DNA of 64,000 nucleotides, from NCBI GenBank assembly GCA_043228905.1, contig JBHGNT010000020.1:4774001-4838000 (forward strand). The letters are read 5' to 3'. This document shows, one piece after another, positions 9,312 through 51,240 of this stretch. The notes beneath the pieces are model-generated. The model was not told where the DNA came from, ran no database searches, and was given only the letters and a program-made list of their open reading frames with translations. The DNA comes from Azolla caroliniana (taxonomy: Eukaryota; Plantae; Polypodiophyta). Numbering within the stretch: the first letter of the stretch is position 1; every line of letters starts with the position of its first letter. Position numbers and translations under genes: made by a program.

Positions 9312-11100
9312 TGTCACAACACGGTGGAAGGTAGGGATTGAACCCAAGACCTCCTGGTCTCCATTGGGCAACCCTACCCATCATTGTATTCAAATCCAAC
9401 TTCATGTATGGTAGATTGAACAAATAAAGTTCCTAGGTTGCATGCATTCTCTATTCCTAGCTTGCTTACCTGCATTCTCTTTTCCGAGCTTGCATACATG
9501 CATTGTCTATTCCTAGCTTGCATGGATCTTCATGCATTCTCTTTTCCTAGCTTGCATACATGCATTCTCTATTCCTGGCTTGCATGGATCTTTATGAATT
9601 CTCTATTCCTAGCTAGCATACATACCTCTACCTTCTTGTATAAATACTTAGGTGCACCTTGATTCTAATTAAGGTGAACAACACTAGTTATGGAATCATA
9701 AGTCAAGTTCTTGTTCTTTTTCTCTCTCCTAGTTCTTAGTCTCGTCTTGGTTCTACTCTATCCGTGACAGTTTATTCACCTTCCTTTTCTTGCTACCATG
9801 TCTGACTCCGTTGACAACCTAAACCAAGTAATGGCAGCCTTGCAACAACTTCAACTCAAAAATGAAATCCTTCGGGAATCATTACGGGAGCTTCAATTTG
9901 TAACATCAAGAAACCCACCACCCGTTGAGCCACAATCGCCATCGGTACCTAGCCGAATCACTTCCTCTTCCCATCCATATGTCCTCGAACCAACCGTTAG
10001 CCTACTCGACAAATTCAATGTCACGAGGGCGTATCTTCGCGGCTTCATCAATCAAATTCATCTTATCATCCGTTTACAACCCCAACGGTATGCTAATGAC
10101 TTTTCTCGGGTCGGCCTCATTGGCACCCTTCTGTCTGGGCCGACGCATGCGTGGTTTGCACCCTTGGTCGAGACCTCATCCCCTCTCTTAGAAAACTTCA
10201 CCGCTTTCCTTGTTGAGGTCGAAGCTACATTCGGCGAGACAGACCGACGATGAACGACACTCACGAAGCTCTATTCCTTCTAACAAGGCTCACGTCTAGC
10301 CTCTGTCTACGCTTTAGAGTTCCACCAAATTTCCTGTGATGTCAGTTGGGATTCCCAAGCTTTATGCAACCATTTTTGTCGTGGTCTCCGAAATGATGTC
10401 AAGACTCTTCTCTTGAACTTTTCGGAGCCCACTTCGTTGTCTCAAGTAATCTCCCAAGACGTCCAATGTGATAATCGTTTGTTTGAATTTCATTAGGAAG
10501 AACGTGGGACTCGCAGGTTTTAGTCTTCTTCCTGAAATGCATCAATAGCCAGGCCCCACCCTACGTCTTAGTTTCGCCCCCCACTCCAACCTTACCCTCA
10601 CCCAATGATACTCATCCTGCAATGGAGGTCGATTCCCATACCCTAATGGAGATTGACCACGCTCGGTTCCAACCACTAACTAATGCCCAACGCCAACATC
10701 GTCGTGCCAATGGCCTCGGTTTCTATTGTGGTAACCCTGGCCATGTCATCCGCCACTACCAGGTGTGGGGCCCTTGATACAAATTCCACCATGCACATCT
10801 TGCGGAGGTTCCTAGACAACAGGAAAACGACCAAGTCCGGCTGCAGTAGGAGCCATGCCATGCTGCTAGACGCTTCCCATTACCCACGTTTTCCATGCTC
10901 CAACAAGTCCATTCCACCATTAAGAGGGTTTGCTTTGCAAGTAAGTCATTGTTTTGGGTAAACATCAATATACTCTCATGCTTTGCTCAACTCTGGAGAA
11001 TCTACTTGTTTTATCGATATATCGTTTGTCTGCGCACATAATATCTCCACCGTCCGCACATCACAACCCATATCCGTTCAAGCTCTCTCTTCGGGGGCAG
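9312..11100 (+). mobile_element. 5' part of a Tcn1/Tf1-like chromovirus Gypsy (LTR 9312-9769, gag, protease)
   Basis: LTR TGTCAC...GTGACA with TATA at 9639. PEG10/RTL-type gag (LRGFINQI...LLSGPTHAWF), Zn-knuckle remnant near 10715-10760, protease-like ALLNSGESTCFID near 10980. Confidence 0.8.
9322..9392 (-). promoter_or_regulatory. tRNA-like module at LTR 5' end
   Basis: Minus strand GAGGTCTTGGGTTCAATCCCT (T-arm/B box) with a degenerate A box 44 nt upstream. Confidence 0.55.
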
Positions 11101-12294
11101 TTAAATAAGACGATTTATGCGCAAGGAGAAAGGGAAGATGAAGATTCCGGAATATGGCATCGAGGCCGAAACGTCGGATTGAAGTGAATCCAACACGGCT
11201 AGAAGCAATGAAGAACCTCTAAAAACAGGGTTGAAATCGGCCGAGAGGGCCACAAAATCGGTGAACCAGAAGTTGCGTTGATCCACCTGCCAAAAAGAAT
11301 CCCGTAATTTGGTACAGGTACAATGAGTATATGGCACATCATTATGCATATATGGCGAAGGTAGCAAATGTGCGTGAGCCGGAAAGCTACGTAGAAGCGG
11401 CCAAGGACACGAATTGGCATGCTACTATGGAGGAAGAGATGAACGCGCTAACAGAGAATGAGACTTGGGACCTGGTTGACGCATCCAAGGGTGTGGGTGT
11501 GAAGCCTATCGGATGCAGGTGGGTGTACAAGATCAAGTACAACGCCGATGGTTCCGTCAACCAATATAAGGCCCGATTGGTGGCAAAGGGCTACACACAT
11601 AAACACGACATCAATTACGATGAGACCTTAGCGCCGGTCGCGAAGATGGCAACTATCCGTGTATTCCTGGCGGTAGTAGCGGCAAAGGGGTGGCACTTAC
11701 ATCAAATGGATGTAATGAACGTGTTCCTACAAGGCGATCTTGAGGAAGAAGTGTACATGGTACAACCCCCCACATTTCTATTTGAACGAAACACCTCGAT
11801 TGTTTTCCAATTGAAGAAGTCGTTGTATGGACTGAAACAAGCCCCGTGTGCCTGGAAAACGAAGATCACGCAAAGGTTGCATAAGATGGGGTTTGCTCCA
11901 TCAAAATCAGAGACTTCACTATTCATTCGGCCGAGTCGAACTAGACCGTTTAGCCTTCTGCTATATGTCGATGATCTAGTCATCGCTAGTGCCGACCTTG
12001 GAGAAATCAACTGAGTAAATGATGAGAAACGCATGGAATATCGCTCAGCCACAACCGAGTAATAAATCACTTCTATAAGAATCAAACACAGAAATGGGAA
12101 GTGGAGAGTACACAAGAAAAATGACACAGGATGTTTACGTGGAAAACCCTAATAGGGAAAAACCACGGGAGCCCACAGACTCCGAACTATCACTATGAAA
12201 AGAAGGGGTACAATTAGAGACTCGGAGGCAACAACCTCAAGCTCTGTTTCCTCGCATAGTGGTGGTTACAACAGAGTATTGCTCTGTATCTCTT

Positions 12295-12339
<45 letters not shown>

Positions 12340-15116
12340 GTCGCTCTCTCTATACAACGGTTACAACAACAATAACAACCATACTAAAGTGATTGCCCTA
12401 AGTCATATTTATACTTATATGAACTTAGGGCTATTTACAAATATAGCTTCAATGGGCTTACTCAGAAACATATTTACAGATATGTCTTCTACATCCGGTT
12501 CTCACCGGGTCTTCTATATCCGGTTCTCAAGATCCCATCCGGAGGGACTGAAATCCCAACAATCTCCCACTTCACTCTAGAATGGGATGTTTCGTCAACC
12601 TGATCTGTGTCCGACATGCGTCCAGCTTGTCGGGTGTAAGCACTTTGGTCAGGATGTCTGACCCGTTCTCCTCCGTGTGGATCTTCATTAGCACGAACTC
12701 TCAATCTTCAACTCGCTCCCGGATCCAGTGCTACCTGCATTGGATGTGCTTCGTTCTTGAATGGTAGGCCGCGTTCTTTGCAAGGTGGATGACGCTCTGA
12801 CTATCGCAGTAGAGCCGGTGTTCCTCTTGTTGGATCCCTAGCTCACCAATGAAGTCCTTCATCTAGATTATTTCCTTGCCGGTTTCCAACACTGCCATGT
12901 ACTCCGCTTCCGTGGTTGACAACGCAACCGTCTTCTGCAGCCTCGACTGCCACGAAATAGCTTCCCCAGCATAGGTCATGACATATCTGGATGTAGACTG
13001 GCTGGTATCCGCATTAGCCGACATATCTGAATTCGTGAATCTGTCAAAATGGGGTTTACCGGAGCCGAATTAGAGGCACATGCTTGAGGTGCCTTTCAAA
13101 TACCGGAGTATCCACTTGATCACGTTCCAGTGCTCTCTTCCGAGATTGCTCATGAACCAGCTCACCACTCCGACTGCATATCCGATATTCGGCCGGGTAC
13201 ACACCATTGCGTACATCAAGCTCCCGACAACAGAGGCATATTGTATCTTCATCATATTCTCCGTCTTTGCCTTTGTCCTCGGGCTCTGCTTTCCGGTTAG
13301 CTTGCAGTTTGCTGGAAGTGTCGATCTGACCGGTTTCGCGTCCGACATGTTGAACCGTTGAAGCACCTTCGTCGCATACTTTTCCTGTGACAAACACAAT
13401 AGCTTTTTTGGCCGGTCCCGGATGATGTGCATCCCTAGTATATGTCTTGCCGGACCCAAGTCTTTCATTGAGAAGGTCTGGTTAAGGGCCTTCTTCAACA
13501 TCCGTATCTTGACTTGGTCTCGTTCGACAATCAACATGTCGTCCACGTACAGGAGCAATATTAGGAAATCTCCTCCATCAAATTTCTTCACAAACACGCA
13601 GTGATCGGCCTGCGTCTTGTGGTACCCTTAATCGGTCATGAAGGAGTCAAACTTCTGGTACCATTGCCGGGGAGCTTGCTTCAGTCCGTATAAGCTCTTC
13701 TTCAGCCGGCACACCAGGTGCTCCTCCCGTTTCTTCTCAAATCCTTCCGATTAATGCATGTAGATATCTTCTTCGAAGTCTCCATGTAGGAATGTCGTCT
13801 TGACATCCAGTTGCTCTACCTCGAGGTCCATGCTTGCTGTTATGCCCAAAACCGTCCGGATGGATGTCATCTTTACTACCGGGGCAAAGATCTCATCGAA
13901 ATCCACTCCTTTCTTCTGCAGGAAGCCCTTCACCATGATTCAGGCCTTATACCTTGGTGGATGTCTGGTGTCTCCCGGTTTCAGCTTGTACACACACTTG
14001 TTCCGGAGTGCCCTCTTTCCTTCTCTTTCCTTTCAGCAACTCCACCAATTCGTATGTGTGGTTCTCATGTAGGGAATCCATCTCATCCTGCATGGCACTC
14101 AACCACTTGTGGCTGTGGGTGTCTCCTCTTGCTTCTTCAAAGCTTTCCAGCTCCCCCTCATCGGTTAGCAACACATGCTCTACATCCGGAAATCTTCGGG
14201 GGGCTCTTCTCTCCTAGAGAGGATATCTCCGTCCTTGGTTTCTGACTGCTGGTTCGTCCGTTTGTTCCTCATCCTCATCCGATTTGGGATCTTGTCCGGT
14301 TCCGGTGTCTTCTTCTTCTTCTTCTTCGGTCGGTTCGGTTTCCTGTCCGTATCCGGCCGGTTCATCGAGTGCAATCCGGTTACCGGCTAACATCCGGTTT
14401 TCAACCGGGTATATCCTTTTGTCCTCAGGCTGGTTTTCAATGGATGATCCGGAGTTTGTTACCTTCTTCTCCGACTCCCAGTCATCAATGGTCCTGTCTT
14501 CCATGAAGACTATGTCCCGACTTCGGAACACCTTTTTGTTGACCAGATCCACCCGGTAACCGAAATCATCATCGTTGTATCCAAGGAATATGCATGGTCG
14601 GCACTTCGGATCCAACTTTGCTCTCTTGTCCTTTGCCACATGTAGGTATGCGAGACACCCGAACACCTTTAGATGCCGGTAAGACATCCTTACCGGTCCA
14701 TACTTTCTACGGTGAGTCTCCGTCCAAGGGTACTGAGGGTGATCTGTTTATCACATAGGTCGTCGTCGTCAACACCTCAGCCCAAAACGTCTTGAGTAAC
14801 TTGGCATGTGCGAGCATGCTCCGAATTCTCTCCATTATGGTCCGGTTCATCCTTTTGGCCAACCCGTTTAGTTCCGGCGTCTTCAACACGGTGAATTAAA
14901 GCTGGATTCCCTTTGACCGGCAATACTCCTCGAACTACCCCCGATATTCTCCTCCGTTATCTGCTCGAACCACCTTCAGCTTTCAGCTGGTTTCTCTTTC
15001 CACTCTTGCATGGAGCTCCTTGAAGACGAATAGCACCTGATCCTTCATTTTCAACGGCAAGACCCACAGCTTTCGGTTGTGGTCATCTATGAACATCACG
15101 AAGTACTGCGATCTGG

Positions 15117-16644
15117 TGTCAAGAATAGTACTAAAACAAAGAGAGAATTGGTACTAGAGAAGGGAAGTACTATTAGTACTAAGACAATGGGATTGCGTAA
15201 GACTCCCGAGAGGGAGGAAAGAGAAGAAAAGAGAAAGAGAGAGATATAGTGAGGACGAGAGAGAGAGAGAGAGAGAGAGAGGGATGACAATAACAAATGA
15301 TATATTATAGGAAGAGTAAGTACAAGATGGCTATGAGGCTTAAGATTGGCGTTGAACCAATTTGGTTCAACATAATGCCTAGTGCCTTCTTTTATAGTGC
15401 TCTTAAGAGTAATCCTGAAGCTTCTAGAATGTTCCCAAGAAATCTGGAATATACATTAATTTCCTATAATAAAACTTAAATGAAAATAACATCCTACGTA
15501 TTACAATAGATGGTATAGTGGTCAAGAGCTCGACCCATATAACATAAGGTCATGGGTTCGAGTCTTGCCATATCATGACACTATCTCTTCCTTAAGATGA
15601 CGAGTGGAACGAGTCGGCGCTGATTGCGGACCGGGTTTGTTCGGATACTTTCACTGGAACTTTGCAAGAAGATCCTGAGCATTGGCGACATGCTCGACCA
15701 AGTACGTTCGCTTGGACTATAGCTAAGCCAATCGACCAAATAATAAAGTTTGTTGCGAACAAGTTTGGAATCGAGGACGGCAGCAACTTCATACTCCATG
15801 CCGGATTCCAACTCAAGCGGAGGTGGCGGTGGTGTAACACGATCGGGAATAGTGTTTGCTTTGTAAGCTTCAAGAAGAGAGCTATGGAAAACCGGATGTA
15901 TCTGAAGATGCGGAGGGAGATCAAGGCGGAACGTGACATCATTAACCTTACTAGTAATATGGAAAGGACCGAGTCGTCCATAATCCAACTTGTCGCCCGG
16001 TCGAGTGGTCTTGATGTGACGACGTAAGAGCCATACGTGAGAGATCCATCTGGATTTTGCGTAGCCTCTCGAAATGATCCTCGGCACGAGGATTGGCAGG
16101 TAGCTCTAGGGTGTCGATCACTGACCAGTGAGGATGAGAACCGATGTAAGTGTAAAATGGGGAAACCCTAGTCGAGGAGTGAACAACATTATTATATGCA
16201 AACTCTGCAAAGTGGAGAATCTCGGTCGAATCGTCCTATTGATAACTCAGAAAACATGGGAGATATTGTTCCAACGTTTGGTTTGTTCGTTCTGCCTGCC
16301 CATCGGTCTGGGGATGGTAGTTGGAGGAGAGGTTTCAAGAGACCTTGAGCATCTTGAAGAGATGCTGCCAAAATTTGGAGACGATTTGAGGTCCTCGGTC
16401 ACTGATGATATTGTTTGGGAGGCCATGATGCCGAAATACCTCACGCATGACAAGGGCAGCGGTTTCCTCGCTAGTGATGGCCTTAGTACACGGCACAAAA
16501 TGTGCCATCTTCGTATATCGATCGACGACGGTTAAGATAGCATCGAACCCCTTCGAGACCGGCAGATGGCATTATGTTATATGGGTCAAGAGCTCGACCC
16601 ATATAACATAAGGTCATGGGTTCGAGTCTTGCCATATCATGACA
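15117..16644 (-). mobile_element. Internally deleted chromovirus Gypsy (LTR 15117-15580, INT + chromodomain, ~70 bp 5' LTR stub)
   Basis: TSD TCTGG/TCCGG. PPT AAGGAAGAGATAG. ORF 15581-16087 has GPF...HPVFH and chromodomain YEVAAVLDSK...YYLVDW. Confidence 0.9.
15511..15569 (+). promoter_or_regulatory. tRNA-like Pol III A/B box module at LTR 5' end (antisense to LTR)
   Basis: TGGTATAGTGG (fits TRGYNNARYGG) at 15511 and GGTTCGAGTC at 15555. Confidence 0.7.
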
Positions 16645-19600
16645 TCCGGCATGTGACTTCGTGTCCACTTGACACATCGGTATGCACCAGCTCTAGTGCT
16701 GCATTTCGTCTCATCGGTGGTCTTGACCAGAAGGAGGTGCGATTTTGCTTGCCGGCCAAGCAATCGATGCACTTCTCAAGTTGCACGTCCTTCACTGGAA
16801 TGAGGTTGTCTTTGGCAAGCCTCTTCATCCCCTTCTCACTCATGTGACACAGTCTTTTGTGCCATAGCTCACCGGTAGTGTTGGACGCTACGTTCACTTC
16901 TTCCCGGCGTATCCGGGCATTCATCAAGTACAATGTATTGACCTTCTAGGCTCGAGCCACTATTAAGCTCCCTTTGCAGAATTTCATGACATCGTTCTAG
17001 TTGCTGCCTGTGTAGCCTTCATCATCTAACTGACCGGCTGATATCAGGTTTAGTCGAACCTCCGGAACGTGTCGGACATCCTTCAGTAGCAACTTGCATC
17101 CGGTTGATGTCGTCAACAACACATCTCCTATGCCGATAATTCGGCATGTCCATTCATTTCCCATCCGTACACAACCGTGCTCACCGACTGTGTAGGATGA
17201 GAAGCATTTTCGGTCCGGGGTAAGGTGGAACGATGCTCTGGAATCGACAACCCATGTTGTCTCGTCGATGACAAGGTTCAACTCGCTCTCCTTGGTGATG
17301 AGCATTAGTTCTTCTTCACTTGCTTCGATCGCCGTCGTTCCCTTCCGGTCCGGGCCTCGCAGATCCGAACCGTTTCGGTCCGGTGACTTCTTCGAATTGG
17401 TACTGTCGGTTCTGTTGTCCTTCCTGAAATGCCGATAGTTCTTCTAGAAGTGCCCCGGCTTGCCGCAATAGAAGCAAGTGGGCCTCCCCCTTGACTTTGA
17501 CTGTGTCCTCGACTTTTCCCGGTTCTGGGGACTCCGATTCCTTTGTCTTCCGCGTTCCGATTCGGTAAGGAGGGCTTTGGCGTCGGAGATCACCTCCTTG
17601 TCTTTCCAACGTGCCTCATCATCTAACAAGCTCGACTTGACTCTTGCTAGGGATAGTTGTTTTCCTTCCAGCCCGGTGTTGCCCAACGTGATAACTAACG
17701 TCTCCCAGCTATCTGGGAGAGAACCGAGCAGGAGTAGAGCAAGTACCTCATCGGCGAGAGGTACTTCCAACGAGGTTGCTTGGTGTATCATCCTCGGAAG
17801 GCATTCATGTGCTCCGCCATACTGGAGCCGTCTTGGTACCGGAGCCTCACTAGCTTCCGGAATAACAAAACCCGATTAACAACATTTTTGTTCTGAAACA
17901 TAATGCCCTCCCAGAGCTCATGAGCCTTGCTCTCTTCATTGAAGTTGTTGTACAAGCTCATGTTGATGAAGCACCGGATGTATGCCGTTGTCTTCATGTG
18001 CATCACCTCCCACACCATGGCATTGATCTTGTCCGGTCTCTTGTCCCCGAACTGAACCAGCAACCAAAGATCTTTAACCAACCACCAGCATGTCCCTCAT
18101 CTTCGACTTCCACACTGAGTAGTTGGAGCCAGTGAGCTTGAACATGTCGCCGTAAGATTCCTCCATTTTCTGTGTTGCTTGCTCTGATACCAGTTTGATG
18201 AGAAACGCACGGAATATCGCTCGGCCACAATCGAGTAATAAATCACTTCTATAAGAATCAAACATAGAAATGGGAAGTGGAGAGTACACAATAAAAATGA
18301 CACAGGATGTTTACGTGGAAAACCCTAATAGGGAGAAACCACGGGAGCCCACAGACTCCGAACTATCACTATGAAGAGAAGGGGTACAATTAGAGACTTA
18401 GAGGCAACAACCTCAAGCTCTGTTTCTTCGCACAGTGGCGGTTACAACAGAGTATCGCTTTGTATCTCTCTCTCCCTCTCCCTCTCCCTCCCTCTCTCTC
18501 TCTCTCTCTCCCTCTCTCTATACAATGGTTACAACAACAATAACTACCATACTAAAGTGATTGCCCTAAGTCATATTTATACTTATATTAACTTAGGGCT
18601 ATTTACAAATATAGCCTCAATGGGCTTACTCAGAAACATATTTACAGATATGTCTTCTACATCCGGTTCTCACCGGGTCTTTTACATCCAGTTCTCAAGA
18701 TCCCATCCGGAGGGACTGAAATCCCAACAGTAAAGTCTCAACTTGCAGCATCATTCAAAATGAAGGATCTAGGGTACCTTCATTACTTCCTCGGGATCAA
18801 AGTGATCCGAACCCCTGAAGGCATATTGATCAGCCAACGCCATTACATGTTGAATATGCTCATCAAGTTCGGGATAGTAGAATGTAAGCTCATCTCAACC
18901 CCTTTAGACGGAAATGTGAAGCTTCGCCACGGTTCGGGAATGTCGTGCGACCAGACATAGTTCTGACATATTGTCAGAAGCCTCATTTACTTGACAATCA
19001 CTCGACCAGACCTCAGTTACCCAATCAACTTGATCAGTCAATTCATATCGCAACCAAAGGCCGAACATGTTTACTGCATGCAAAGGATATTCCGATATGT
19101 TAGCGGCACTAAGGAAAGAGTGTTGTTGTATCGGGCAGGAGTAGCTTATGAGTTAATCGGTTACACAAATGTTGATTGGGCCAGAAATGCCAACGATCAC
19201 GACTAAACATCCAAGTTTACGTTTTCTTTGGGAAGCGCTGCAATTGCTTGGAGCAGTAAGAAGCAACCGACAGTAACACTGTTGAGCACTAAGGCCGAGT
19301 ATCGAGGGGCGGTTGTTGCTACGTGTGAAGCCATTTGGCTGAAAAGGCTTTTGAAGGATTTGCACGTAGAGGTGTCCGAGCCAACAATGATATACTGTGA
19401 CAACCTCAGCAACATCCAACTTATGAAGAACCCCGTCTTCCATGCCCGGACAAAGCATATCGAAGTGCACTATCATTTTGTCTACAAACAAGTCCCCTTC
19501 GGAGAAGTCGAACTTCTTCATGTCCCAACTGATCGGCAGGTGGCTCATATCTTCACCAAACCTCTTGGCCTAGACAAGTTGTGGCATTTTTCGAGCATGT

Positions 19601-21365
19601 TTGGCCTACAACACCTCGATATGCTGAACTTGAGGGGGAGGAGTGAAGTTGAAAATGAGAGAGACGAAGTCCGAAAAGCCGACCCAGATGAAGAATTCGA
19701 TTTCGGCCCAAATGAAGAAGTTGGAATGTTCAGATCGGCTAAAGAACGAGAATGCATGGACTGATGGAAGAAGATCGGCTAATCGAAGGATAGCGAGATG
19801 TTGGAGGAGTGGCTGAAAAAGAGAGCCGAATCCAGAGCCAACTGAACCAAGGGGAAGTGAAGCCGGCAAGGGCAAGAAAGATGGCAGAGTCAAAAAGGAC
19901 AAAGCCGATCGACTGAAGCCAAGAGCAAGACATAGGCAGATGTGGTCGAGGGCCAGAAAGGGGACGAATCGGAGACAACTGATTCAATTGAAAGTCAAAG
20001 TGAATCAGAAGTAACCGATTCAATTGAAATGTTTGATTTGGAGGAGCCGAATCGACTGGCCAAGCAGACGAGAAGGCAGTTGAAGCCGATGGTGAGACGG
20101 AGGAGCCAACGGGTCTAGGGGCGCCAATACCGTAGTAGCGAGGGAGTTGAGAAGGGCCAAAGCAACAGACAAGCCGACCGTAGAGGTCGAGGTGCACGAA
20201 ACCAAACAAGTCAAAAAGCATCAAATCGCAGGGGCCGTGGGACGCCGAACCAAACTGGAAAAGGAGCACGAGTGAGGCAACATGACGATAGGAGAAGAGG
20301 CTGGAGTGACAAACCAATGGGAATTGACACGGAGGGACCTCAAGTTGAGCTTGAGGGGGAATGTTGAGAGACAAGCTCAATAATGGGCCAATTCGGCTGA
20401 AGAAGCTGAGAACTGAGAACTGAGGGCCGAAGGCCATGAGCTGGGGATTCAGTTGAAGAAGCCGAGAACGCCGAGGGCCGAGGGTCGTGAGCTGAGTAGG
20501 AAGGTTTCCGAAAGGCCGTTGAGGGTCTATATTCCTACTATAGTAAATAGGAATATTGTAGACAAATTTAGTGTCAAGCTCATTTATGAGCATATTTAAG
20601 TACTGACGGTACTTGTGTCAGCCCACTTGTCAAGGGCTTGTATAAAAAGTGCTCATTGAGCACAATGCATGTACAAGGTTTTCATTATTCGAAATAGTTT
20701 TTGTTTACTACTCTCTCTGTTGGCTGGCAAGACCAAAGGGCCGGTTAGAGTCTAGAATGTGAAAAGGGTATTAGTTAAGGATAGGGAGTTGCTATAGATA
20801 AATATTATGTTATTTTGAGAAGATAAATATTATGCTATTTTGAGAAGCGGGCGGACGGACCAGAATCGGTATGCCGATTCGGATCCGAACCAGATCGTTG
20901 TCGGCTGCCGATTGGCACCGGTTTGTAACTCAGTCGGAGACCTATAAAAGGACCCAACAAGAATGTAATCAGGGATGGATAATTAATAGAAGCGTTGTTG
21001 TTTTAAGTATTGTTTAGTGTCTATTTGGTTACCGTCCTATACTTAATATCATTAATCTTACGCGTGTGTTACGATCATTAACAATGCCGATTACTAATCG
21101 ATTAAGACCCATTTGATACCATGGTCCATCCATATCTCACCATACCACCCTTTGGGGAAGTGTTCCATAGGGACACCCTATGTTAGGGCTTGTCCAGCCT
21201 AAAGGATAACATAGTTTTTCCCTGATTACATTCTTGCCGGGTCCTTTTATAGGTCTCTAGCTGAGTTACAAACCGGTGCCAACCGGCAATCGGCAATGAG
21301 CCGGGCCGGACCCGAATCCGCTTCTCAAAATAACATTTGTACGTCGAATCCATGGTTAGCCCTTT

Positions 21366-24076
21366 TCAATTGTCTGTCAAAATGTCGAGAATGATTTGGT
21401 CTAAGGGTTCTAGAGGTTCTTCGGGTAGTTGCTCCGTTTGTTGTGGTGGTTTGCTATTGCTGTTGCTATTGCTCTCCGACCTGCTCTTCCTTTCCGGCTC
21501 CAGTCCCTTCCAGGCTTCCGTCTCCGGCTCATTTGTTTTGGACTCCTCCTCCTCCTGACGTCCGGCTTGCACTGACTCCTGCGGGTTCGGCTGCTACACT
21601 TGAGTTACATTTGGCTAACTTCCTCCGGTTTCGACTGCATTCGGCGTCTGTTCCAGAGAGTGCTCTTTGTCACTAATGTTAATTGTCATCGTTCTTCTAG
21701 CCATTTGTTGTCTCTGCTCCCGTTCATATCGCTTGAACTGAAGTTGGGTATCCAGCTGGTCGTCATCCAGCTGTTCCACCAACCAGCCCACCGCCACCAA
21801 ATGCTCTCCGACCAAGGACAGGAAGTCATCCGTTAACTCCTCCCGTATGGTCACAACGCTTTCTGCGTCCATTTTGTAGAAGTTATCGCTATCCTTTTGC
21901 TGGTTCTCCACATTTGTTCGCAGGACCTACAACTTGGCTGCCTGCTTTGCCCATTTGGACCACCACTGTACTGAGCTTTCTTCAACTAGCCTCCTCGTCC
22001 GGTCCCTCCATGTAAGTACAATGTCTCGAATACGGCCAAGTCCCATCTTTGACTTCTCCTCCGTAACCTACTTTTCATCCTTTAATTGCTTTATGAGGAT
22101 CGTGGTTGCCTCAACTTGTCCTTGATATGGCATCAGTTGCGTCTGATAAGTCGTCTAAACTCTATTCAGAGCCATCTTTGCTCGTTCCATCTCTTGATGA
22201 TGCTGCCGGGTAAGCTCTATTTTGTCCTTCGCCACTTCTGCCAGCATCTTTCCCGCTTTAACTCCCTGGTCCTTTATTCGCCAATGCCGATGCCGTCCTG
22301 TTGACATCATCCTAGAGTTCCCGCATTTTCTGTTGCTGCCAGTCACCTTTTGTCATCAATTTCTTGTGTTCCGCCGCTAGGTTCTTGTGATCCTAGTGCA
22401 ACCTGTCAAAATCCTCCATTTTTTGTTTCAGCCTTTGATTGACTTGGCGTCAGGCCCGGTTCTCACGGTCCTTTTGTTGCCGGAGTTCTTCTTGGAGCCG
22501 CTCAATCGCTACTTCCGCTGATCGCTAGAGTTTGTCCTTTTCTTGCAACAACTTTTCTTTTTCTTCCTTCAATCGGTCATATGCTTGATGACCCGTCCGT
22601 AGATTGTCCTCGGCTCTTTGGAAGTTCTCTGCCATTTTCCGTTGTTCCTCCTCCGCCACCTTCTTCAAGTTTCGTTCCCTAGCCCTTAAGGCCTCTTGGG
22701 CTGCTAATTCCTCTCTGAGAGTGGCAAGTTCTTATTCTTGTGCCTTATTTGCATCCGGTGCTATTTTAGTTACCGACATCTTATTGGTCTGTTCATTCAC
22801 CGTAGCCACCGGTTCTGGTAGTATTGGTCCTTCTATGACCTGCTTAGCCGCCTCTGCTTCGGCCTACACAATTTCTTCTTCCATGCTCCGGATCCTTGAC
22901 CGGGCTACGCTTCTAGCAATGTAGGAGGTTATCGGCGAGGTCTTCCTCCACCTCCTCCTCTTGGGTTCTGATATTGAACTTCGTTGCCAAGGGTTCCGGT
23001 TCTTGTTCTTGTCGGCGCAGCTTGATTTTAAAGGGCCTTACTGGTGGCTCCACCGGTGTCTTTGTCTCTCCTTGTCTCTTCCGGCTAGGCGGTTCTTTCC
23101 CTTGCTACGAGGTACTGCCCTCTTTCCATCTGGGCGTGCGCTTGGCCAGGAGTTGCTACCGTTTTGAATGTTTGTTGGGCGTGGTCTCCGTTACTCGAAC
23201 TCATTTCTTCGTCTTTATCGGCTCCACCGGGGCCGCCAAGAGAGTCAGTCATTGAGCCACGACCGTCCATAATAATTTCTTGCCATTCTACACTGATTCT
23301 ATCGCCGTTCGCAAGCAATCTGTGATGATTACCGACCAATCCACTTGCACCGTGTATGTAGCAATGATGAAACCGGCTTTATTCTTGGGCATTGCCGGGG
23401 GTCGGGGGTACACGAACCCATACTCGTGGAGGACACGAGCCACTTCTCTGAATAGGGGGTCTTCACCACCCTGTGTCCGGTGAGCCTTGCTGGTGAGGGA
23501 ATACTCACCAAAAAACTTGGTTAGCGTTTCAGGAGAAGGGTTCTTGATGGAGTATATGCCCCCTTCCGGCAATCCGATTAGATTGCGGATGGCTTCCTCC
23601 ATTATGAATTCTGTGTCGATTTTAAGCACGATTTTGGTCCTCGCCACCCTGTATCCAGTGAGCCTTGGTGGCGAGGGAACACTCGCCAAAAAACTTGGTT
23701 AGCGTTTCAGGAGAAGGGTTCTTGGAGTAGATGCCCCCTTCCGGCAATTCAATTAGAGCGCGGATGGCTTCCTCCGTTATGACTTCTGTGTCAATTTTAA
23801 ACACGATTTCTTTTGCCTCGTCGTGCAGCGGTGCCTCTGCTATCCTCAGGAAGCCTACCAACCCATGTTGGTTGAACCACTTCTTGGCTGTTTTGAAAGT
23901 GCCATAGGTTCCATCTCGTGGTCTGGTTCTATGGGGGTGGGCAGGGCCGATGTGTTTGTATGTGCTTCTTGCGTCTGTCTGCTTACTTGTATTGTCCTTT
24001 GTGCGCTCAATGCTCTATGTTCGCGAAATGAGAGAGGCTCTGCGAGGCGGAGGTTTCGTGTTCCCATGCTTGGCAC
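21366..24076 (-). pseudogene. Degenerate additional (3') ORF of the Gypsy element: globular domain + long coiled coil
   Basis: Co-oriented ORF fragments downstream of integrase (23288-23689, 21615-21911 and others), E/K/R/Q-rich. Internal ~180 bp duplication at 23500-23810. Confidence 0.55.
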
Positions 24077-26055
24077 CTTTCTCGATTCCCACGCATGCTC
24101 GTCGTGTACTATAATAGCAATTGTGTGACACGTGGTGCACTTTAACTAGGCTTTAAATAGCCACTACATGCCTTTTCGAGGTGTCCGTTCGCTCCTCGCC
24201 TCTTCATGATGATTTTTTTTTCTTCTTCTAGTTCTGATTACCCAGTAACCCTGGCTCCATTGTCTGTTTTTCTTCATGGTTGCCGGCCAACTGCTTGCTG
24301 CTGCCTATTTCCGCATTGTTCTTCGGTTGATGAAATGGGTTCTGTGGCATGGGTCCATAATATGGTTTAAGTCGGAACCCATTTACCCACTTGTCCAGCA
24401 CCTTGCCGGCTAGCGTTCCCAGCTGATATGAGCTGTTGAACTCTCGCGTTATCCAATATGGTCCGGTCCATCAGAACCGTAGCTTCCTCGACATCTTGCC
24501 CATCCGGGTTTGGAACACTAGTACCGGCTTGCCGATTCCAAATGTCTTCTCATTACCCTTCCGGTGGTAGTTGACGAATGCTTTCCGTCGTCGTTGCTCG
24601 AGTTCCATCTGCATTAGGCTCGCTATTCGGTGCTCCTCTAGCTCGCATAGTGCTGCTAACTGGATTTTTTCTGACTCCTTCTCGCTCAGCTGGTCCCAGA
24701 CCTGTATCCATAAGCTTGGAATCTGGAATTCTATTGGCATCACTGCTTTGAGACCAAATGCTAAACGGAATGGTGTTGTCCGGGTACTTGTTTTGTATGC
24801 CATCCGGTAAGCCCATAATGCGTTGTGCAACTTTGTATCCCAATTGGTTCGGTTCTCATTGACAATCTTCTGGAGAATATTTTGCAGAGTTTTATTGGTG
24901 GATTCGGCCAATCCATTGGCCTGCGGGTAATAAGGGGTGCTTCGCTTGTGTACGACCGCATAAAATGTTGTTAGGCTTTCCACCACTTGGCCGAGGAAGT
25001 GTCCACCTTGGTCGCTGATTAATTCGATTGGACATCCATACCAACACCAGATGTACTTGTATAGGAACTTTGCCATCGACGTCGTGGTATTGTCACGTAG
25101 TGCCTTGGCTTCCACCCATTTTGTACAGTAATCTGTGGCGACAATTATGTACCTGTTGCCGGTTCGCATTGCCGATGGCTTTAATGGTCCAACGAAGTCC
25201 AACCCCCATTTCTGGAATGGCTCTAGAGGTAGTACCGGCTGGTGCGGCATGCGTGCTTGTTTCGTTGGCTGGCCCATTCTTTGACACAGATCACATTCCT
25301 TCGTATATCAAACCGAGTCCTTTAGTGTCGTTGGCTACCATAAGCCGCAACGCCATATTTTCCTTGCCGTAGCTTCTCCGGCATAATGTCCTCCGACGAC
25401 CCCACAATGCACTTCCCGTAAAATGGTGTCTTTTTCATCACTCTGGACCACTCGCCGCCATATGCCATCCGCTCCTTTATGATACAATGTATCCTGCACT
25501 AGACAAAAGTGTTGGTTTACACCACCAACCGTTTACGTTCATCCTAATTCATCTCTTCTGGGGGTAGTCTGGTGCTTAAGAACTGGTGCATGATCGTTAG
25601 CCATTTGTCCTCTTCCGCGACCATCCCCTCTACCATGGTTTCCGTTGCAATTTTAAACAATTTGGCATCCGTAAAGTCATCTTGAACACCATCATCGGTC
25701 TCTCTAGATTCTAACCGGCTCAAGTAATCGGCAACCGCATGTTGTATACCTGACCAGTGATAGATCTCAAATTCAAATTCTTGTAATAATAATGTCCACC
25801 GAGCCAGGTTGCCGCTGAGTGATGCCTTTGAGACCAAGTATAAAAGCGTTGAATGGTCTACATGGAATGAAAACTTGCAGCCCAACAAATAATTATAGTA
25901 TTTGGTGACACTATATATCATTCCTAGGGCTTCTCTTTCCATAGTGGAATAATTTCGCTCTGCCTTTGACAGCTTCCGGCTAGCGTAACACACCAGCCGG
26001 TACCACTTAGGTTCGGTAAGTTGCATGATTATGCTGCCGATTGCGATATCTGACG

Positions 26056-26645
26056 TGTTATCGGCCGGTAAAGAAGGCTTAAGGAGTTCCAAACCAAAGT
26101 GTGAAAGGAATAGTTATTCAGGAACTGTTGTAATTAGTAGTCTTAATATATACATATTATTATATAAGAAGATGCGGACGGATGGACCGGAATCGGTATG
26201 CCGATCCGGATCCAGAACGATTCCGTAAAGGTGCCGGTTGGCACCATTTTGTATTTCGCACCGGAGACCTATATAAAGGCCCGGTTACAATGTAATCAGG
26301 AGCGGATAATTAATAAAGCTTATTGTCTTAATCTTCAAGTGTTGATTACCGTTCTATATTTATTGTTATATCTTACGCGTGTTAATTACGGATGGCTAAG
26401 TAATCGATTAAGGTCTAATTAAGCGTTGTGCCATAAGTCATTCTGTCGTACCACCCTTTGGTGACGTGTCTTGAGTGGACACCCTGTGTTAGGCTGTTGT
26501 CCGGCCGACTCCGATCCGTCCGTCCACATCTTCTTATATAAGAATATGTATATATTAAGACTACTAATTACAACAATTCCCGAATAACTATTCCTTTCAC
26601 ACTCTGGTTTGGACCTCCTTAAGCCTTCTTTACTGGTCGGTAACA
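26056..26645. mobile_element. LTR-derived fold-back element with ~141-bp terminal inverted repeats
   Basis: TGTTA...TAACA with TSD TGACG (26051-55, 26646-50). Arm 26056-26196 is the reverse complement of arm 26505-26645. The body is homologous to the LTR at 20718/30455. Confidence 0.9.
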
Positions 26646-29600
26646 TGACGCATCCATGAAGACATGGAACTCTTTTGACCAGTCCAGGGGTTGTACCACT
26701 GGTGCTTGTGACAACATTACCTTGAGTGCGTGGTAAGCCTTGTCCTCTTCATCAATCCATTTAAACAGTGTCCGGTGTATAGCTGCGTGTAGTGGCGTGG
26801 CGAGGTCTTCCAAGTACCAGAGCATTTGGTTATGCCACTGGATCTGTCCTAAGAACCGGCTTAACGCCTTGGTGGTCGTCGGTGCAAGTGCCTGCAAAAT
26901 AGCCTTGACCTTATCCGGGTCCACGACAATCCCCAAGGCCTTATCCGGGTCTACAACAATCCCTTCCTTGCTAATAATATGACCCAACAATGTGTCGTTG
27001 GTCACACCGAAGACGTATTTTGCCGGATTTAAGCTTAACCGGTATTCTCTACACTTTTCCAAGCATAACCTAAGATGATCGAGATGTTCCCCTTTCCGGC
27101 TATATACCGCGAAGTCATCCAGGAATACCTCCATAAATGCCAGTATGAATTCTCCAAATACTTCCATAATAATCCTTTGAAAGGTTGTCGGCGCGGTCTT
27201 GAGTTCGAACATCATTACAACTGCTACAAAGACTCCCCCCCATTCTGTCACGAACGCCATCTTTTCTTGATTGTTCAGGTGCATCCTTATTTGGTTATAT
27301 CCGTTGAAACCATCGAGGAAGCTATAAACCTCGTGCCCGGTTACCGCATCTAAAACCCCATCCGTAAACGGAAGCGAAAATGCATCAGTGACCATTGCCG
27401 CGTTCAATTTCCGGTAATCCACACAAACACGGATCTTGCCGTTCTTCTTCGGCACTACGACAATTGGACTTAGCCAAGTGGCTTTCTTCACCAGCCGGAT
27501 AAAGCCGACTCGAATTAGCTTGTCAATTTCCTCCTTTACTCTTGCCGCGTAGTTTGGGTTCATCCGATAGCATTGTTGTGACACCGGCTTCGTGTCCTTG
27601 CTAAGGTGAATCTGGTGTTGATAGAGTTGGGGGTCAAGTCCCAGCATATCTTTGTAGGACCAGGTGAATACGTCCCGGAATTCTTTTAATAATGTTATCA
27701 TTGCTGATTTGTCTTCTGTTGGCATCTAGTTGGGACGCCTTTACTCATTTAGATACCGCCATTTCTCATTCTAAGGCCTCCTGTGTTTGCCGCAGTTCTC
27801 GGATTGCTTCCTTATCCGGTTCCTCACCGGCCTCTTCCGTTTGCACAATGTATGGAGATACCGCTTCTGCCACGTCCACTTCGAACAGAGGGACGATCCT
27901 TGGTTTTTCTTTAAGGTAGCGGTCCACCTCCTTGTCGGCTAGTCCTGCCAGCATGTTCATGCTTTCGGCATATAGTGGGGTTACATCTTTGCCGGGGCCT
28001 ACTTGCGGTTGCGTGGGTACTCTTACTTTCATTTTCCCTCTTCGAAACGTAATATTGTTCTTCTGCCAGTTCTTTTTGATACGGGCAGTCCTCAGCCATG
28101 GTCGTCCTAACAGTAGTGGGTATGCCCCTTGAGCATTCAGCTAGAGCACTACCATAGAAATTCAGAAAGCATGATCTCCGATCGTCACCTCCAAGTCCCG
28201 GATCAAGCCGGCCGGCCGGACTGAGCTGGTGTCCGCCATCCGGAGCCAGAATGGGTATGGTTCCCACTCCTAAATTCCCAAAGTGTCGCATGTTCGGAGG
28301 CTTATCACGTTTACTCCTGATTCGCCATCGACTATCGTAGCTGGTAGCTCCTGTCCTTTAATAATTGCAGTGATTGTAGGACTGCTAGTGTCCACCACTA
28401 CCGGTCCTTCCTCCGGATTTGAAAAGAGTGCCGAAGCCGGTGCAGGATTTAACGGAGCCATCGCCGACTTCAACCTGTCGGTGAACCGGGGCACTAGTTG
28501 CAGTAACCGGCCCAGTGGTAAAGTGATTTGGCCTTCCTGAAGTGCTTGCCACGTGGGGTTCTCTGGCTGTGCCTTTACGGTGAGTACCTCCACTGTATTC
28601 GTGTGCTCTTTCATTTCGGTGACATTGCGTTCATTGGCCTTTTCAATCCATTCGGTGGTTTGTTTTTGTATGGCCTCTTGTGCTTCCCACTCCACCGTCT
28701 TTCCTTTTGATATGGTGGTGACTTGCTTTATATCTGCTACTTCTGCTATCACCATATTGACTACCAGTCGTTTTTCGTTACTTTTAACCGGACATTGGTT
28801 GCTGTAATGGCCTTCCTGGTGGCAATAGTAACAATATGCCGTCCTGGTATTGCTAAATTCTGGCAATAATCACCGTTATAATCTTGGTTCCTATCATACC
28901 GATCCTGGTCATAAGCATCCCTTCTTTGGTTGTAATCCTGGGAGTAGTCCCGTTCATACCGATCTCAGTTGTAGTCTTCCCTACGTCGGTCGTCGCGATC
29001 GCACCCATAGTTGTAGCGTCTTCTATCATTGTACCGATCCCCACATTCTAGTCGGTATGAGTCCTCCCTCCGGAACCGTTCGTCATCCGGTTCGTGACTG
29101 CTTCCTGGTTCAATGATCCGTACCGGTGCCGCTTGTTGGTTGAGCAGGTTGTACTCGCATCGGTCTGTTGTGTGTGCCCGTGAGTGGCAGATCATACACT
29201 GCGTCCTCATTGTGCAGTCTACCGTCGAATGGCTTGAGTTTAGACACGTTGTGCATTGCAACGCTTGGCGAAACCTGAGATCCTCCTTATTTGGAAGGGC
29301 CCTCTATAGGGATCCCATCGTCATCAGGGAGCTATGTTTATCCATTTCCCGCACCCGATCGATGACTTGATCCATTGTGCTGGCATGGAAATCTAGTACT
29401 GCACACATCGTTTGGAGGGGTTCCCGTAGAGTGGCCAGGAACACTACTTTCACGTCCTCGTCCGGTGGTGTCCTTGTTAACTGGTTGTGTAATGTTTGAA
29501 ATTAGATGATAAATTGGGGCACTGTCTCTTGCTCCTCTTGGTGGGTTGTGTAAAATTGACCGACTAGTTCGCGTTGTTCCACTTGCCTATGGAATAGTCA

Positions 29601-29874
29601 GAGGAATTTCGTTTTCAAGCCCTCAAATGTGGCAAAGCTTCTGGGTAGGTGCTTTGCGTGCCAGCGGGCCGCCGGTCCCTCTAATGTCATGCCGAATTCG
29701 GCCCTGTTCGACTTCCGGTTCAGTCAGCCTTCCGGACACATGATTTGCTTCCCATGTTTGTAGGAACACATAGACGTGCGCCTCCACGTCAGGGTCATCA
29801 CAATACTTCGGATACGGATATGGCATAGTGTAGTCTTCGGGAGGTTGTACCAGAGATATGTGGTCTAGTTCTTG

Positions 29875-30045
29875 CATTGCGGGTGGTGTTGGTGTACAGT
29901 TTTCCACTTCCTCTGCGGGTGATGTTGGTGCAGGGTTTTCCACTTTCTCCGTGGGTGGTGTTGGTGTAGGGTTTTCGGCTGTCTTCGTGGGTGGTGTCGG
30001 TGCGCGGTTTTCAGCTTTCTTCGCGGTTGGTGTTGATGAGTTGTT
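29875..30045 (-). repeat. 33-bp in-frame tandem repeat in gag (ENPTPTPP-like)
   Basis: About 5 copies of GGTGGTGTTGGTG...GTTTTC at 33-nt spacing. Confidence 0.8.
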
Positions 30046-32936
30046 CGATTCGTCGTCCTCTGGATCGTCCGGAGTATCGTGGCTGCTTTTGTAATTCGAC
30101 TAAATGCTCTATTCACTATCCGATTCTGACTCTAAGGTTGAGAATGCCTCCGAGTCTCCATTGCCTTCGGCAAGCATCCACAGTCGTGATTTTGCCTCTT
30201 GCAGGCTCATAAGACTACTGCCCTCATTGGAAAGTTGTTTTTGGAACCGAAGTGCTTCTTTTGTGACCCTCCGTAGCACTCTAGGAAAAGACCGATCCTG
30301 TCGGATCTCTTCGGCCGCTTGCTGGAAGGCTTGCCGTCTTTGTTGTCTTCCGACTAGTCTTCTTCCTTGTTCGGTGACTTGGTCATTAGTCGGTCGAGAC
30401 ATCCATCCCCCGGTGTTCTCTGTTCATTGCAGGAATCGTGGTTGCCAAAAACTGTGTTATCCTTTAGGCTGGACAAGCCCTAACACAGGGTGTCCCTATG
30501 GAACACTTCACCAAAGGGTGGTACGGTGAGATATGGATGGACTATGGTATCAAATGGGTCTTAATCAGTTATTAATCGGCATTGTTAATGATCGTAACAC
30601 ACGCGTAAGATTAATGATATTAAGCATAGGACGATTACTGTAACCAAATAGACACTAAACAATACTTAAAACAACAACGCTTCTATTATTTATCCGTCCC
30701 TGATTACATTCTTGCCTGGTTGTTTTATAGGTCTCCGGCTGAGTTACAAACCGGTGCCAATCGGCAACCAGCAACGATCCGGTCCGGATCCGAATTGGCA
30801 TACCGATTCTAGTTCGTCCGCCCGCTTCTCAAAATAAAATAATATTTATCTTCTCAAAATAACATAATATTTACCTATAACAACTCCCTATCCTTAATTA
30901 ATACCCTTGTCACATTCTGGACTCTAACCAGCCCTTTGGTCTTGCCGGCCAACACTCTTTGTCTCTATCTCTCTCTCATACCATTCTCTGTGATTACCTA
31001 ACTGTCGAGTTTCTGTAACTAAATGTGTACTTGGTTCGGTGTCTATCACACATGCTTCCGCACATGTATTCCTTTTCATTTTTGAAATAGAGTTTTCATC
31101 TTCTTGCTCTCATTCTGTCTCTCTCTCTCACCCACTCTGTGTGTCTCCATTGTTCTCTGTTTCTATCCGGCTACCCCGGTTGTGATCTGTTACAACTTCA
31201 TGCATATTTTCTTTTACATGATATCAAAGCGCGAGGGTTAGAACATCCTCTGCTGCCGGCAAGAGATCTACATACAGACAAACCCTAACTTTCGGAGAAG
31301 AACAAATGAGACGAGAAATGAACAGAGGAATGTGAAGCTCACATATGATGGAGAAGCTTGATAGGAGCAACTACGCATCTTGCTCATATAAGATGCACCA
31401 ATACCTAGTAGGGGATGTGTATTGGAGTTATGTTATTGAGCGACAAGCACAACTGGATCTAGATCGGCTGAATAAGCCTGAGCTGGATCATAGCCGAATC
31501 CGCATCCGGAAGGATGAGCCAGATCGGTATTTGGAAACAAGAGTCGGATCAGGGAGACGGATTAGAGAGCCGGATTTGAGTGTGAACCGGAAGCCTAGTC
31601 GTAGCCTAGACTACTAGGTAATCACTGTCTTGTAGTTAGTGTCAGTTGCACCGCACGTAGGAATGTTGAAGTACCTATCAATACTTCTGTCAGTCCTTTA
31701 TGGACTTGTATAAAAGTGCTCTCTGAGCACATTCTATGTACACAAAGTTTTAGACTATTATTTTGAATAGAGTTTTTTGTTTTGTTGTCTCTCTCATGTG
31801 TATGCTTATTCTTTGTGTTAAGCTTCCATTAAACCTTCTTCTCTTTATTGTTACTATCCGGAAGAGCCGGTTTGGCATAAGCTTCCGCACGCTAACTTTG
31901 ACATGGTATCAGAGCGTGAGGGTTGAGAACCTCTGCAACTGACAAACGCTTTCGACGACAAACCCTAATAACCGGTAACAACAGACAGAGAAAGGTATGG
32001 ACAAAGGTATGGCGAGTTCACTTCCAACAGAGAAGCTTGATCGGAGCAACTATGCATCTTGGTCATATAAAATGCACCAGTACTTGCTACGGCATGGTTA
32101 TTGGAGCTATGTGGAAGGAACCACTGAGGTAGCACCGGAGCCGGCACACAAAGACTTCCCGGCATGGGAGCAAGGAGCGAGCTGAGTATTGTACTGTCTC
32201 ACGTCTGGTGTGCATGATCAGATGCTCAGCTACATCAAAGATGCAAAAATGCTAGAGGCCTGGGAAAATCTTCGGAAGATTTTCACCGCGAGTACCACAG
32301 CCCATAAGTTGCAACTCCGGCAAGAGCTGAACAACATCCGACAAAGAGACATGTCGGTTACGAACTACACCATCAAGGTAAAGGAGATTTGCGACGCACT
32401 CGGGTCCATCAATGTGACAATGGACAAAGATGAGATGGTTCAAAGATGCCTTGGTGGTCTAGCACAATGTTACGGGCCAATCCAAATGGCAATCTGCACA
32501 TGGGAGAAGCCACCGTCCTTCTTCAACTTACAATCAATATTGACGGTCGAAGAAAACCACGTGAGTGAGTCGAGGACCACTCAATCGGACAACTGGATGC
32601 TGTACACGGAAGAGTATCAACCCCGTGGTCGTGGAGGACGAGGTGGGTTGGTACGCAATGAAAGCGTCCGGCAAGAGCAGAACCGAAGGCACAGAGACAA
32701 TGTTGACAGCAGTTCCAGACCCTCCACAAGCAGGGGGAGTCAAGTCGGAGCTGGAAACTGGCAGTTGAAAGCCGACACAAAATGTTGGTATTGTGGCAAG
32801 AAAGGCCATAGAGAGAGAAAGTGTTGGAAGAAGCGTGCCGATTCGGATAAATCCGGATCCGGCAAGGTTGGACAAGGGAACTTGCAAAAGTCGCACTACA
32901 CAGAAGGATCGAAGGATCAAGAACCTAGAAGACCGG

Positions 32937-51131: not shown

Positions 51132-51164
<33 letters not shown>

Positions 51165-51240
51165 CTCTCTCTCTATCTCACACACACACACAGTTCACAC
51201 CTATTCCGCTTCACAAGAATCCATCTCTTGATTCTTTACA
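45865..51240 (+). mobile_element. Near-intact Copia (youngest-looking in window)
   Basis: LTRs 45865-46256 and 50847-51240 are highly similar. TSD CTAAT, PBS TGGTATCAGAG at 46257, PPT GAGGGGGCA. Gag-PR ORF 46419-47951, then INT/RT/RH with a few frameshifts. Confidence 0.97.

What the first reader, a model, noticed from the sequence alone, without database searches (positions are those of the whole stretch)
26056..26645. MITE-like element made from an LTR: 141-bp inverted U3 arms with a clean 5-bp TSD
Seen: an almost complete Gypsy LTR reads forward to near its 3' end. At a CCGA microhomology (~26505) it turns and copies its own first 141 bp in reverse. The unit has TG...CA ends and the perfect TSD TGACG inside a relative's RNase H. 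Solo LTRs formed by recombination do not have this shape. Inference: plus-strand strong-stop DNA snapped back on itself, and the product with two U3 attachment ends was integrated. This would be a route from LTR retroelements to TIR-bounded, hairpin-RNA-producing units.
Basis: partly seen in the sequence, partly recalled or inferred. Interest (0 to 1): 0.75.

Follow-up and report, generated by a model that had tools for sequence, protein, structure and literature searches.

The report
Nested retrotransposon copies with mirrored ends
This 590-base insertion is the end-repeat of a plant retrotransposon joined to a reversed copy of its own first 141 bases, and the larger retrotransposon it landed in also has reversed end-repeats; both are likely one-off copying errors that integrase still inserted, and no spread of the mirror form is shown.

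Summary
The structure is real: 141-bp arms (12 differences), TG...CA ends and a perfect TSD (TGACG) splitting the host RNase H; host paralogues lack it in 4 of 4 runs laid. All 8 related LTR ends compared are ordinary; the unit lacks only 11-13 nt of U5, and the junction overlap is CC, not CCGA. Its junction joins the LTR plus the spacer up to the primer site to the point 32 nt after the TATA box, both reverse-transcription landmarks. Best reading: a template switch onto plus-strand strong-stop DNA gave cDNAs with two U3 ends, which integrase inserted. The small unit may be the solo-LTR remnant of such a full-length copy. 'MITE-like' is unsupported: no second copy of the junction was found (weak test), it has no primer site, and its own promoter would transcribe one arm only. 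The scan noted similar mirror-ended LTR products in this and other genomes; nine paper searches found no description. Interest 0.4.

The parts
26051..26055 (+). left target-site duplication TGACG
   Evidence: empty site in host paralogues
26056..26506 (+). forward Gypsy LTR (U3-R-most of U5), lacking the last 11-13 nt
26056..26196 (+). left arm = first 141 nt of U3
26175..26225 (+). U3 stem-loop; the arm ends on the last stem base before the 4-nt loop (26197-26200)
   Evidence: z -2.9, 0 of 200 shuffles fold as well
26270..26277 (+). TATA box of the LTR, downstream of the left arm
26500..26508 (.). junction; overlap CC (26505-26506), or TCCGG plus a 9-nt skip
26505..26645 (-). right arm = inverted copy of U3 1-141, ends in CA on the + strand
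26646..26650 (+). right target-site duplication TGACG
20713..20717 (+). host left flank CTCTC (probable TSD, 4/5 with CTCTT)
   Evidence: a 4/5 match arises in 2-11% of local 5-mer pairs
20718..21211 (+). host's inverted full LTR (its second U3 end)
   Evidence: 92% like the 5' LTR, 39 differences in 512 aligned sites
21212..21219 (+). 7-nt LTR-to-PBS spacer plus one shared T; ends at the primer-site boundary
   Evidence: compared with the 5' LTR end of the host
21219..21337 (-). remnant of the host's direct 3' LTR: U3 pieces ending at LTR position 258 (TATA+32), with two deletions
21338..21362 (-). first half of the non-PPT motif that precedes the 3' LTR in relatives; second half deleted
   Evidence: L010, L003
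21363..30429 (-). host internal region: decayed gag (CCHC), RT, RNase H (split), integrase and about 3 kb of extra reading frames
30430..30454 (-). host primer-binding site (starts TGG at 30447) and 7-nt spacer
   Evidence: same layout in L008, L009, L010
30455..30954 (-). host 5' LTR
30955..30959 (+). host right flank CTCTT (probable TSD)

Best explanation
The 590-bp unit is likely a one-off reverse-transcription error: a plus strand that was 11-13 nt short of the U5 end would have switched template onto plus-strand strong-stop DNA at a hairpin in U3 and copied it back to the U3 start, giving a cDNA with two U3 ends that integrase then inserted with an ordinary 5-bp duplication. Shown: the anatomy, the TSD, ordinary LTR ends in relatives, and a second inverted-LTR insertion (the host). 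Inferred: the template switch, its timing before integration, and integrase use of two U3 ends. Two routes give the same final sequence and cannot be told apart here. (A) A full-length cDNA acquired the inverted end, was integrated, and was later reduced by recombination between its direct LTR parts to a solo unit (about half of this explanation's weight). (B) An LTR-length strong-stop DNA folded back or primed on a second one and was integrated as such. The host is likely the same kind of accident at full length: a strong-stop DNA ending at the primer-site boundary joined at the predicted U3/R boundary. Both copies are predicted to be dead ends.
For: TG...CA ends and a 5-bp TSD are the LTR-integrase signature (93.4% of plant elements have 5-bp TSDs, PMC6317226 passages); TSD and empty site shown. 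The inverted copy stops exactly at the first base of U3, as a strong-stop DNA template would make it. Host junction: the forward LTR runs through the 7-nt spacer and stops at the PBS boundary, which is where second-round (+) strong-stop DNA ends once the tRNA is removed; in Ty3 such molecules are displaced and dead-end ones accumulate in particles (PMC5371799 passages). Its partner point is TATA+32, about where plant transcription starts (recalled). Arm divergence 12/141 fits host LTR divergence 39/512 (Fisher p 0.72) and 10/141 over the same U3 stretch, and is mostly transitions, so both pairs fit identity at insertion followed by decay. Differences from the majority letter fall on both arms (4 left, up to 8 right, p 0.39). 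Solo-LTR formation occurs in this clade (L003 and L011 share a right flank; L011 has a 5-bp TSD). Truncated viral ends priming on viral DNA in either orientation is described for HIV (PMC5041404 passages).
Against: The small unit's break point is not a natural stop of reverse transcription; a 3' trim would need a host nuclease or an early stop. The overlap is only 2 nt. The host TSD is 4/5 in a CT-rich tract (2-11% by chance), and no contig joint across the host's site was among the 15 listed of 328. The U3 remnant of the host is about as far from both LTRs (15 and 12 of 99) as they are from each other (11 of 99), so it does not show a separate template. The landmark coincidences were noticed after the fact. 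No genome was held, so recurrence and copy number could not be counted.
Confidence: 0.62

Rival explanations
1. An ordinary solo LTR was altered in the chromosome: a replication or repair template switch entered through the 5-bp terminal inverted repeat (TGTTA/TAACA), copied 141 nt of the other end in reverse and returned at CC, leaving the TSD untouched.
For: Explains the TSD without two-U3 integration; ordinary ends in TAACA (6 of 8) share 5 nt with the unit's start; return point at a hairpin tip; such four-point switches create inverted repeats in human DNA (PMC5453318 abstract and passages).
Against: That paper treats short events; the host would need a 10-kb jump copying about 500 nt that happens to end at the PBS boundary and return at TATA+32. 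Arm divergence is no lower than the host's, so there is no sign of a later event.
Confidence: 0.15
2. Integrase joined the U3 ends of two separate cDNAs at one site, and host end-joining trimmed and linked their free ends at a 1-2 nt overlap.
For: Gives a clean 5-bp TSD, needs no special second-strand step, and fits the short overlaps and the 11-13 nt trim. Two-donor integration in vitro is recalled, not from a call.
Against: Does not by itself explain why the host's forward piece ends at the PBS boundary and meets the predicted U3/R boundary; the arms fit one source copy.
Confidence: 0.13
3. The unit is a member of a mobile, MITE-like family with LTR-derived inverted termini, moved by an integrase-like transposase or re-copied through RNA.
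For: Ends fit the TGTNR pattern and 141 bp lies in the 40-270 bp TIR range of Ginger1 (PMC2836005 passages); sequence like the unit is very abundant in the runs (summed depth 102,439 over 26224-26587 in X1 against about 2,000-11,000 over most host bins).
Against: No opposite-strand joint among 5,329 contigs laid in 4 runs; 1 match in the window and 0 of 11 loci; 6 of 6 related loci have ordinary ends; no PBS or second-strand primer site in the unit; both arms have decayed. The contigs are short, so absence is not proved.
Confidence: 0.06
4. Assembly artefact from a fold-back read or mis-join.
For: No laid contig spans the whole unit.
Against: Arms differ at 12 of 141 sites with a transition bias, a perfect TSD is present and the host frame resumes after it.
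Confidence: 0.03

Closest known systems
Solo LTRs of plant non-chromovirus Ty3/gypsy elements (OTA side; PMC6317226, passages)
   Same: LTR sequence, TG...CA ends, 5-bp TSD; L011 is an ordinary solo LTR of the clade
   Different: U5 end replaced by an inverted copy of U3; host has inverted full LTRs
Aberrant HIV-1 proviruses (PMC5041404, passages)
   Same: truncated end joined to viral DNA in either orientation through short homology
   Different: there one end is put in by host enzymes and host duplications are usually long; here a clean 5-bp duplication and two attachment-site ends
Dead-end (+) strong-stop DNA of Ty3 (PMC5371799, passages)
   Same: displaced LTR-length plus strands ending at the tRNA boundary are the likely template or primer
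   Different: not reported there as integrated two-U3 products; Ty3 uses a PPT, these relatives lack one
DIRS-1 (search listing and abstract starts only)
   Same: retrotransposon with inverted LTRs
   Different: DIRS-1 uses a tyrosine recombinase and inverted LTRs are its normal form; the host has a DDE integrase (rve) and its relatives have direct LTRs
Ginger1 and Ginger2/TDD DNA transposons (PMC2836005, passages)
   Same: TGTNR termini, TIR length in range, Gypsy-integrase kinship
   Different: Ginger1 has a 4-bp CCGG/CCGT TSD and its own transposase; here the arms are LTR U3, there is no coding sequence and no shown mobility

Membership tests
MITE | terminal inverted repeats and TSD, short, non-coding | tested here: met
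MITE | many copies of the same unit with different TSDs | tested here: inconclusive
   no second junction; contigs short, no genome held
MITE | termini derived from a DNA transposon with a matching transposase | tested here: not met
   arms are the U3 start of a Gypsy LTR
Ordinary solo LTR | one full U3-R-U5 with TG...CA and 5-bp TSD | tested here: not met
   last 11-13 nt of U5 replaced by inverted U3; TG...CA and TSD are met
TRIM / non-autonomous LTR element | two direct LTRs with PBS and second-strand primer site | tested here: not met
   repeats are inverted; no internal domain or PBS
DIRS order (host) | tyrosine recombinase instead of DDE integrase | tested here: not met
   rve at 24474-25307; no recombinase hit in the host fragments scanned
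DIRS order (host) | inverted LTRs as the family's normal form | tested here: not met
   L010 has the same LTR in direct orientation after the 3' internal end
Ginger1 | TGTNR termini and 40-270 bp TIRs | tested here: met
Ginger1 | 4-bp CCGG/CCGT TSD and transposase gene | tested here: not met
   5-bp TGACG; no coding sequence
Ty3/gypsy (host) | gag, RT, RNase H, integrase in that order | tested here: met
   protease gave no Pfam hit
Named plant lineage (Athila, Tat, Phygy, Selgy) for the host | placement on an RT-RH-INT tree; aRH or chromodomain state | tested here: inconclusive
   no tree built; no aRH or chromodomain hit in the fragments scanned; nearest named RT hits are Adiantum (50%) and Riccia (44%) proteins
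PPT-less, dual-tRNA-site lineage (scan notes) | no purine tract; motif ending CCA 2 nt before the 3' LTR | tested here: met
   2 of 2 related loci that show this region (L010, L003); half deleted in the host; unit linked only by LTR likeness
PPT-less, dual-tRNA-site lineage (scan notes) | motif is the 3' end of a tRNA and primes the plus strand | tested here: inconclusive
   no tRNA hit by Rfam or ARAGORN; identity rests on scan notes and recall

The most novel reading that the evidence does not exclude
In this PPT-less lineage the plus strand is tRNA-primed, so a strong-stop DNA that folds back would copy the attached tRNA end, rebuild a primer site and get its second strand from a new tRNA. 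Mirror-ended, integrase-ready units would then arise unusually often and could seed TIR-bounded families with Ginger-like ends: a direct road from LTR retrotransposons to DNA-transposon-like elements.
Probability: 0.12. Interest if true: 0.75.

Novelty: new variant of a known kind. Interest (0 to 1): 0.4.

Why it matters
It suggests that LTR integrases accept two U3 ends in vivo and that strong-stop DNA gets captured, leaving fossils that LTR finders (direct repeats only) miss and MITE finders would misfile. Two nested cases in 10 kb, one with junctions at reverse-transcription landmarks, make the rate and break points testable genome-wide, and a comparison of PPT-less and PPT-bearing families would test the tRNA-priming idea. 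As long as no spread is shown, it is a fossil of a rare error, not a new mobile class.

Tried and rejected
Whole-genome count of junctions: no genome held. Expression: no RNA holder listed. Junction recurrence: 4 of 15 listed runs laid on the forward LTR; 3 joints listed, none on opposite strands; pieces are at most about 160 aligned letters, so this is no proof of absence. Summed depth is no copy number and was used only to say the family is abundant. Metagenome motif scan: 11 loci, 5 dropped (L002, L004-L007: no likeness to the LTR, GC 52-60%). Viral contigs: no relative. Empty site of the host: flanks searched separately in the window; paralogues only about 71% alike and not informative past the site. 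Separate template for the host U3 remnant: not shown. tRNA identity of the pre-LTR motif: Rfam and ARAGORN negative; its fold is no better than shuffles in L010 (z 0.31) and weak in L003 (z -1.6). Papers: nine searches gave no description of integrase-bearing LTR elements with two U3 ends; one search listed 15 of 179; most subscription papers are not searched and no supplements were read (those of PMC6317226 could place the lineage). The EMBO J 1997 paper on Ty strong-stop transfer was not held; a review was read in passages instead. Scan look-ups by relatives, by sequence and nearby were empty.

Full report
Observation. The unit spans 26056-26645. Its arms (26056-26196, 26505-26645) are 141 nt, 91.5% complementary and 308 nt apart. 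It begins TGTTA, ends TAACA and is flanked by TGACG on both sides; a perfect 5-mer match arises in 0.1-0.4% of local pairs. It cuts the RNase H domain of a minus-strand Gypsy: Pfam RT_RNaseH_2 positions 1-40 lie on one side and 37-99 on the other. In 4 of 4 public runs laid (of 15 listed), contigs of host paralogues (20 differences in 153 on one side) join 26050 to 26646, skipping 595 nt with TG..CA ends. The 12 arm differences are 10 transitions and 2 transversions, which a fold-back read or mis-join would not give.

What the forward part is. Positions 95-451 of the unit align at 70% with both host LTRs. A motif scan of metagenome contigs gave 11 loci; 6 are related LTRs and 5 show no likeness and were dropped. 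All 6, and both host LTRs, go on past the unit's break point for 11-13 nt to an ordinary end in AACA; none of the 11 loci holds an inverted repeat at E up to 1e-4. The overlap at the junction is CC, since 0 of 8 ordinary ends read CCGA. An alternative reading is a 5-nt overlap followed by a 9-nt skip. The arm ends on the last stem base before the loop of a U3 hairpin (z -2.9), noticed after the fact.

The host has the same shape. The host runs from 30954 to 20718 and is bounded by inverted full LTRs, 92% alike, with flanks CTCTC and CTCTT. A 4/5 match arises in 2-11% of local pairs, so this TSD is probable, not certain. Its direct 3' LTR survives only as U3 pieces with two deletions, ending at LTR position 258. 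There it meets the inverted LTR, which carries the 7-nt spacer and stops at the boundary of the primer-binding site with one shared T. Position 258 is 32 nt after the first T of the TATA box, about where plant transcription starts (recalled). In Ty3, repeated plus-strand priming displaces strong-stop DNAs, the second ends where the tRNA was removed, and dead-end ones accumulate in particles (PMC5371799, passages). Both sides of the host junction are thus reverse-transcription landmarks. Relative L010 has the same LTR in direct orientation after the 3' internal end, so inversion is not the family's normal form.

Age. Arms differ at 12/141, host LTRs at 39/512 (Fisher p 0.72) and at 10/141 over the same U3 stretch. 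Four arm differences are private to the left arm against the majority letter in the runs and up to 8 to the right (six rows of that table were not shown). This fits arms identical at insertion, soon after the host's own insertion, and long decay since.

Mechanism. Most likely (0.62) a plus strand short of the U5 end switched onto plus-strand strong-stop DNA, its own or another molecule, and copied back to the U3 start; integrase used the two U3 ends. Either this happened on a full-length cDNA that was later cut down by recombination between its direct LTR parts, or on an LTR-length molecule. Solo formation occurs in the clade: L003 (3' LTR) and L011 (solo, 5-bp TSD) share a right flank. Rivals: a chromosomal template switch on an ordinary solo LTR (0.15; PMC5453318, abstract and passages), two-donor integration with end-joining (0.13; recalled), a mobile family (0.06), artefact (0.03). 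Against the best reading: the unit's break point is no natural stop, overlaps are 1-2 nt, the host U3 remnant does not look like a separate template (15, 12 and 11 of 99), and no genome-wide count was possible.

Mobility and hairpin RNA. Sequence like the unit is very abundant in the runs, but that is what an abundant ordinary LTR family gives; loose ends at 30479 in three runs (9, 22 and 17 contigs) read like an ordinary LTR end of a sister family. Laying 4 runs on the forward LTR alone placed 1,560, 2,188, 1,186 and 395 contigs and listed no opposite-strand joint; the junction motif occurs once in the window and in 0 of 11 loci. The contigs are short, so a family is unlikely but not excluded. 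The unit has no primer site. A read-through RNA of the whole unit folds into a long stem (-292 kcal/mol, z -25), but the TATA box lies downstream of the left arm, and an RNA from the predicted own start folds like shuffles (z 0.23). Hairpin RNA would need read-through, for example from the host's 5' LTR.

Lineage. The host has gag (CCHC), RT, RNase H, integrase and about 3 kb of extra frames, with no chromodomain or second RNase H hit in the fragments scanned. Nearest named RT hits are fern and liverwort proteins at 44-50%; closer ones (up to 85%) are unnamed. This suggests a non-chromovirus Gypsy of a seed-free plant; no tree was built. Relatives L010 and L003 have no purine tract; a motif ending CCA lies 2 nt before the 3' LTR, and the host keeps its first half. 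Scan notes read this motif as an inverted tRNA site; my Rfam and ARAGORN tests did not confirm it. If it is one, a folded-back strong-stop DNA would copy the attached tRNA end and rebuild a primer site for its second strand. That is my most novel reading (0.12). Against a special role: scan notes report mirror-ended products in other genomes and in a Copia of this genome (unchecked).

Comparison. It works like an aberrant retroviral integration product (PMC5041404, passages) but with a clean duplication. It resembles Ginger termini (PMC2836005, passages) and DIRS inverted LTRs (listings) without meeting their defining features. Nine searches found no paper on integrase-bearing LTR elements with two U3 ends; the library lacks most subscription journals and no supplements were read. 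Verdict: real, a new variant of a known kind, found before by this scan on other DNA; the nested pair and the landmark junction are what this window adds. Interest 0.4.

Noticed in passing
window 20713-30959: The host Gypsy has inverted full LTRs with a 4/5 TSD; its junction lies at the PBS boundary and TATA+32.
   Followed up: yes
L010 95-142; L003 746-793 (minus); window 21338-21362: No polypurine tract before the 3' LTR; a motif ending CCA 2 nt before the LTR instead, with an 8-bp stem in L003.
   Followed up: partly
L003 and L011: Same right flank; L003 has internal sequence before the LTR, L011 is a solo LTR with TSD ACTGT: a full-length and solo pair at one locus.
   Followed up: partly
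L010 1-1550: One LTR with 3' internal sequence before it and PBS plus gag after it: tandem array, one-LTR circle or collapsed assembly.
   Followed up: no
window 21369-24014 (minus): About 3 kb of extra reading frames after the host integrase, with a 175-bp internal duplication (23458-23809) and no Pfam hit in the fragments scanned.
   Followed up: partly
window 20352-20717: The host seems to sit inside the 3' LTR of a Copia element (purine tract then TG at about 20362); that LTR family is abundant in the runs.
   Followed up: partly
window 12020-18729 and 45865-51240: Two ordinary Copia elements with direct LTRs (93.5% and 97.5% alike) and 5-bp TSDs (GTAAA, CTAAT).
   Followed up: partly
window 58358-59125, 53800-55047, 60130-61596: Tandem arrays with units of about 83, 120 and 200 nt; the last also has an internal inverted match.
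   Followed up: no
window 59338-60174 and 61954-63456: A 278-aa frame with a weak HTH hit (below cut-off) and a 500-aa frame without a Pfam hit.
   Followed up: no
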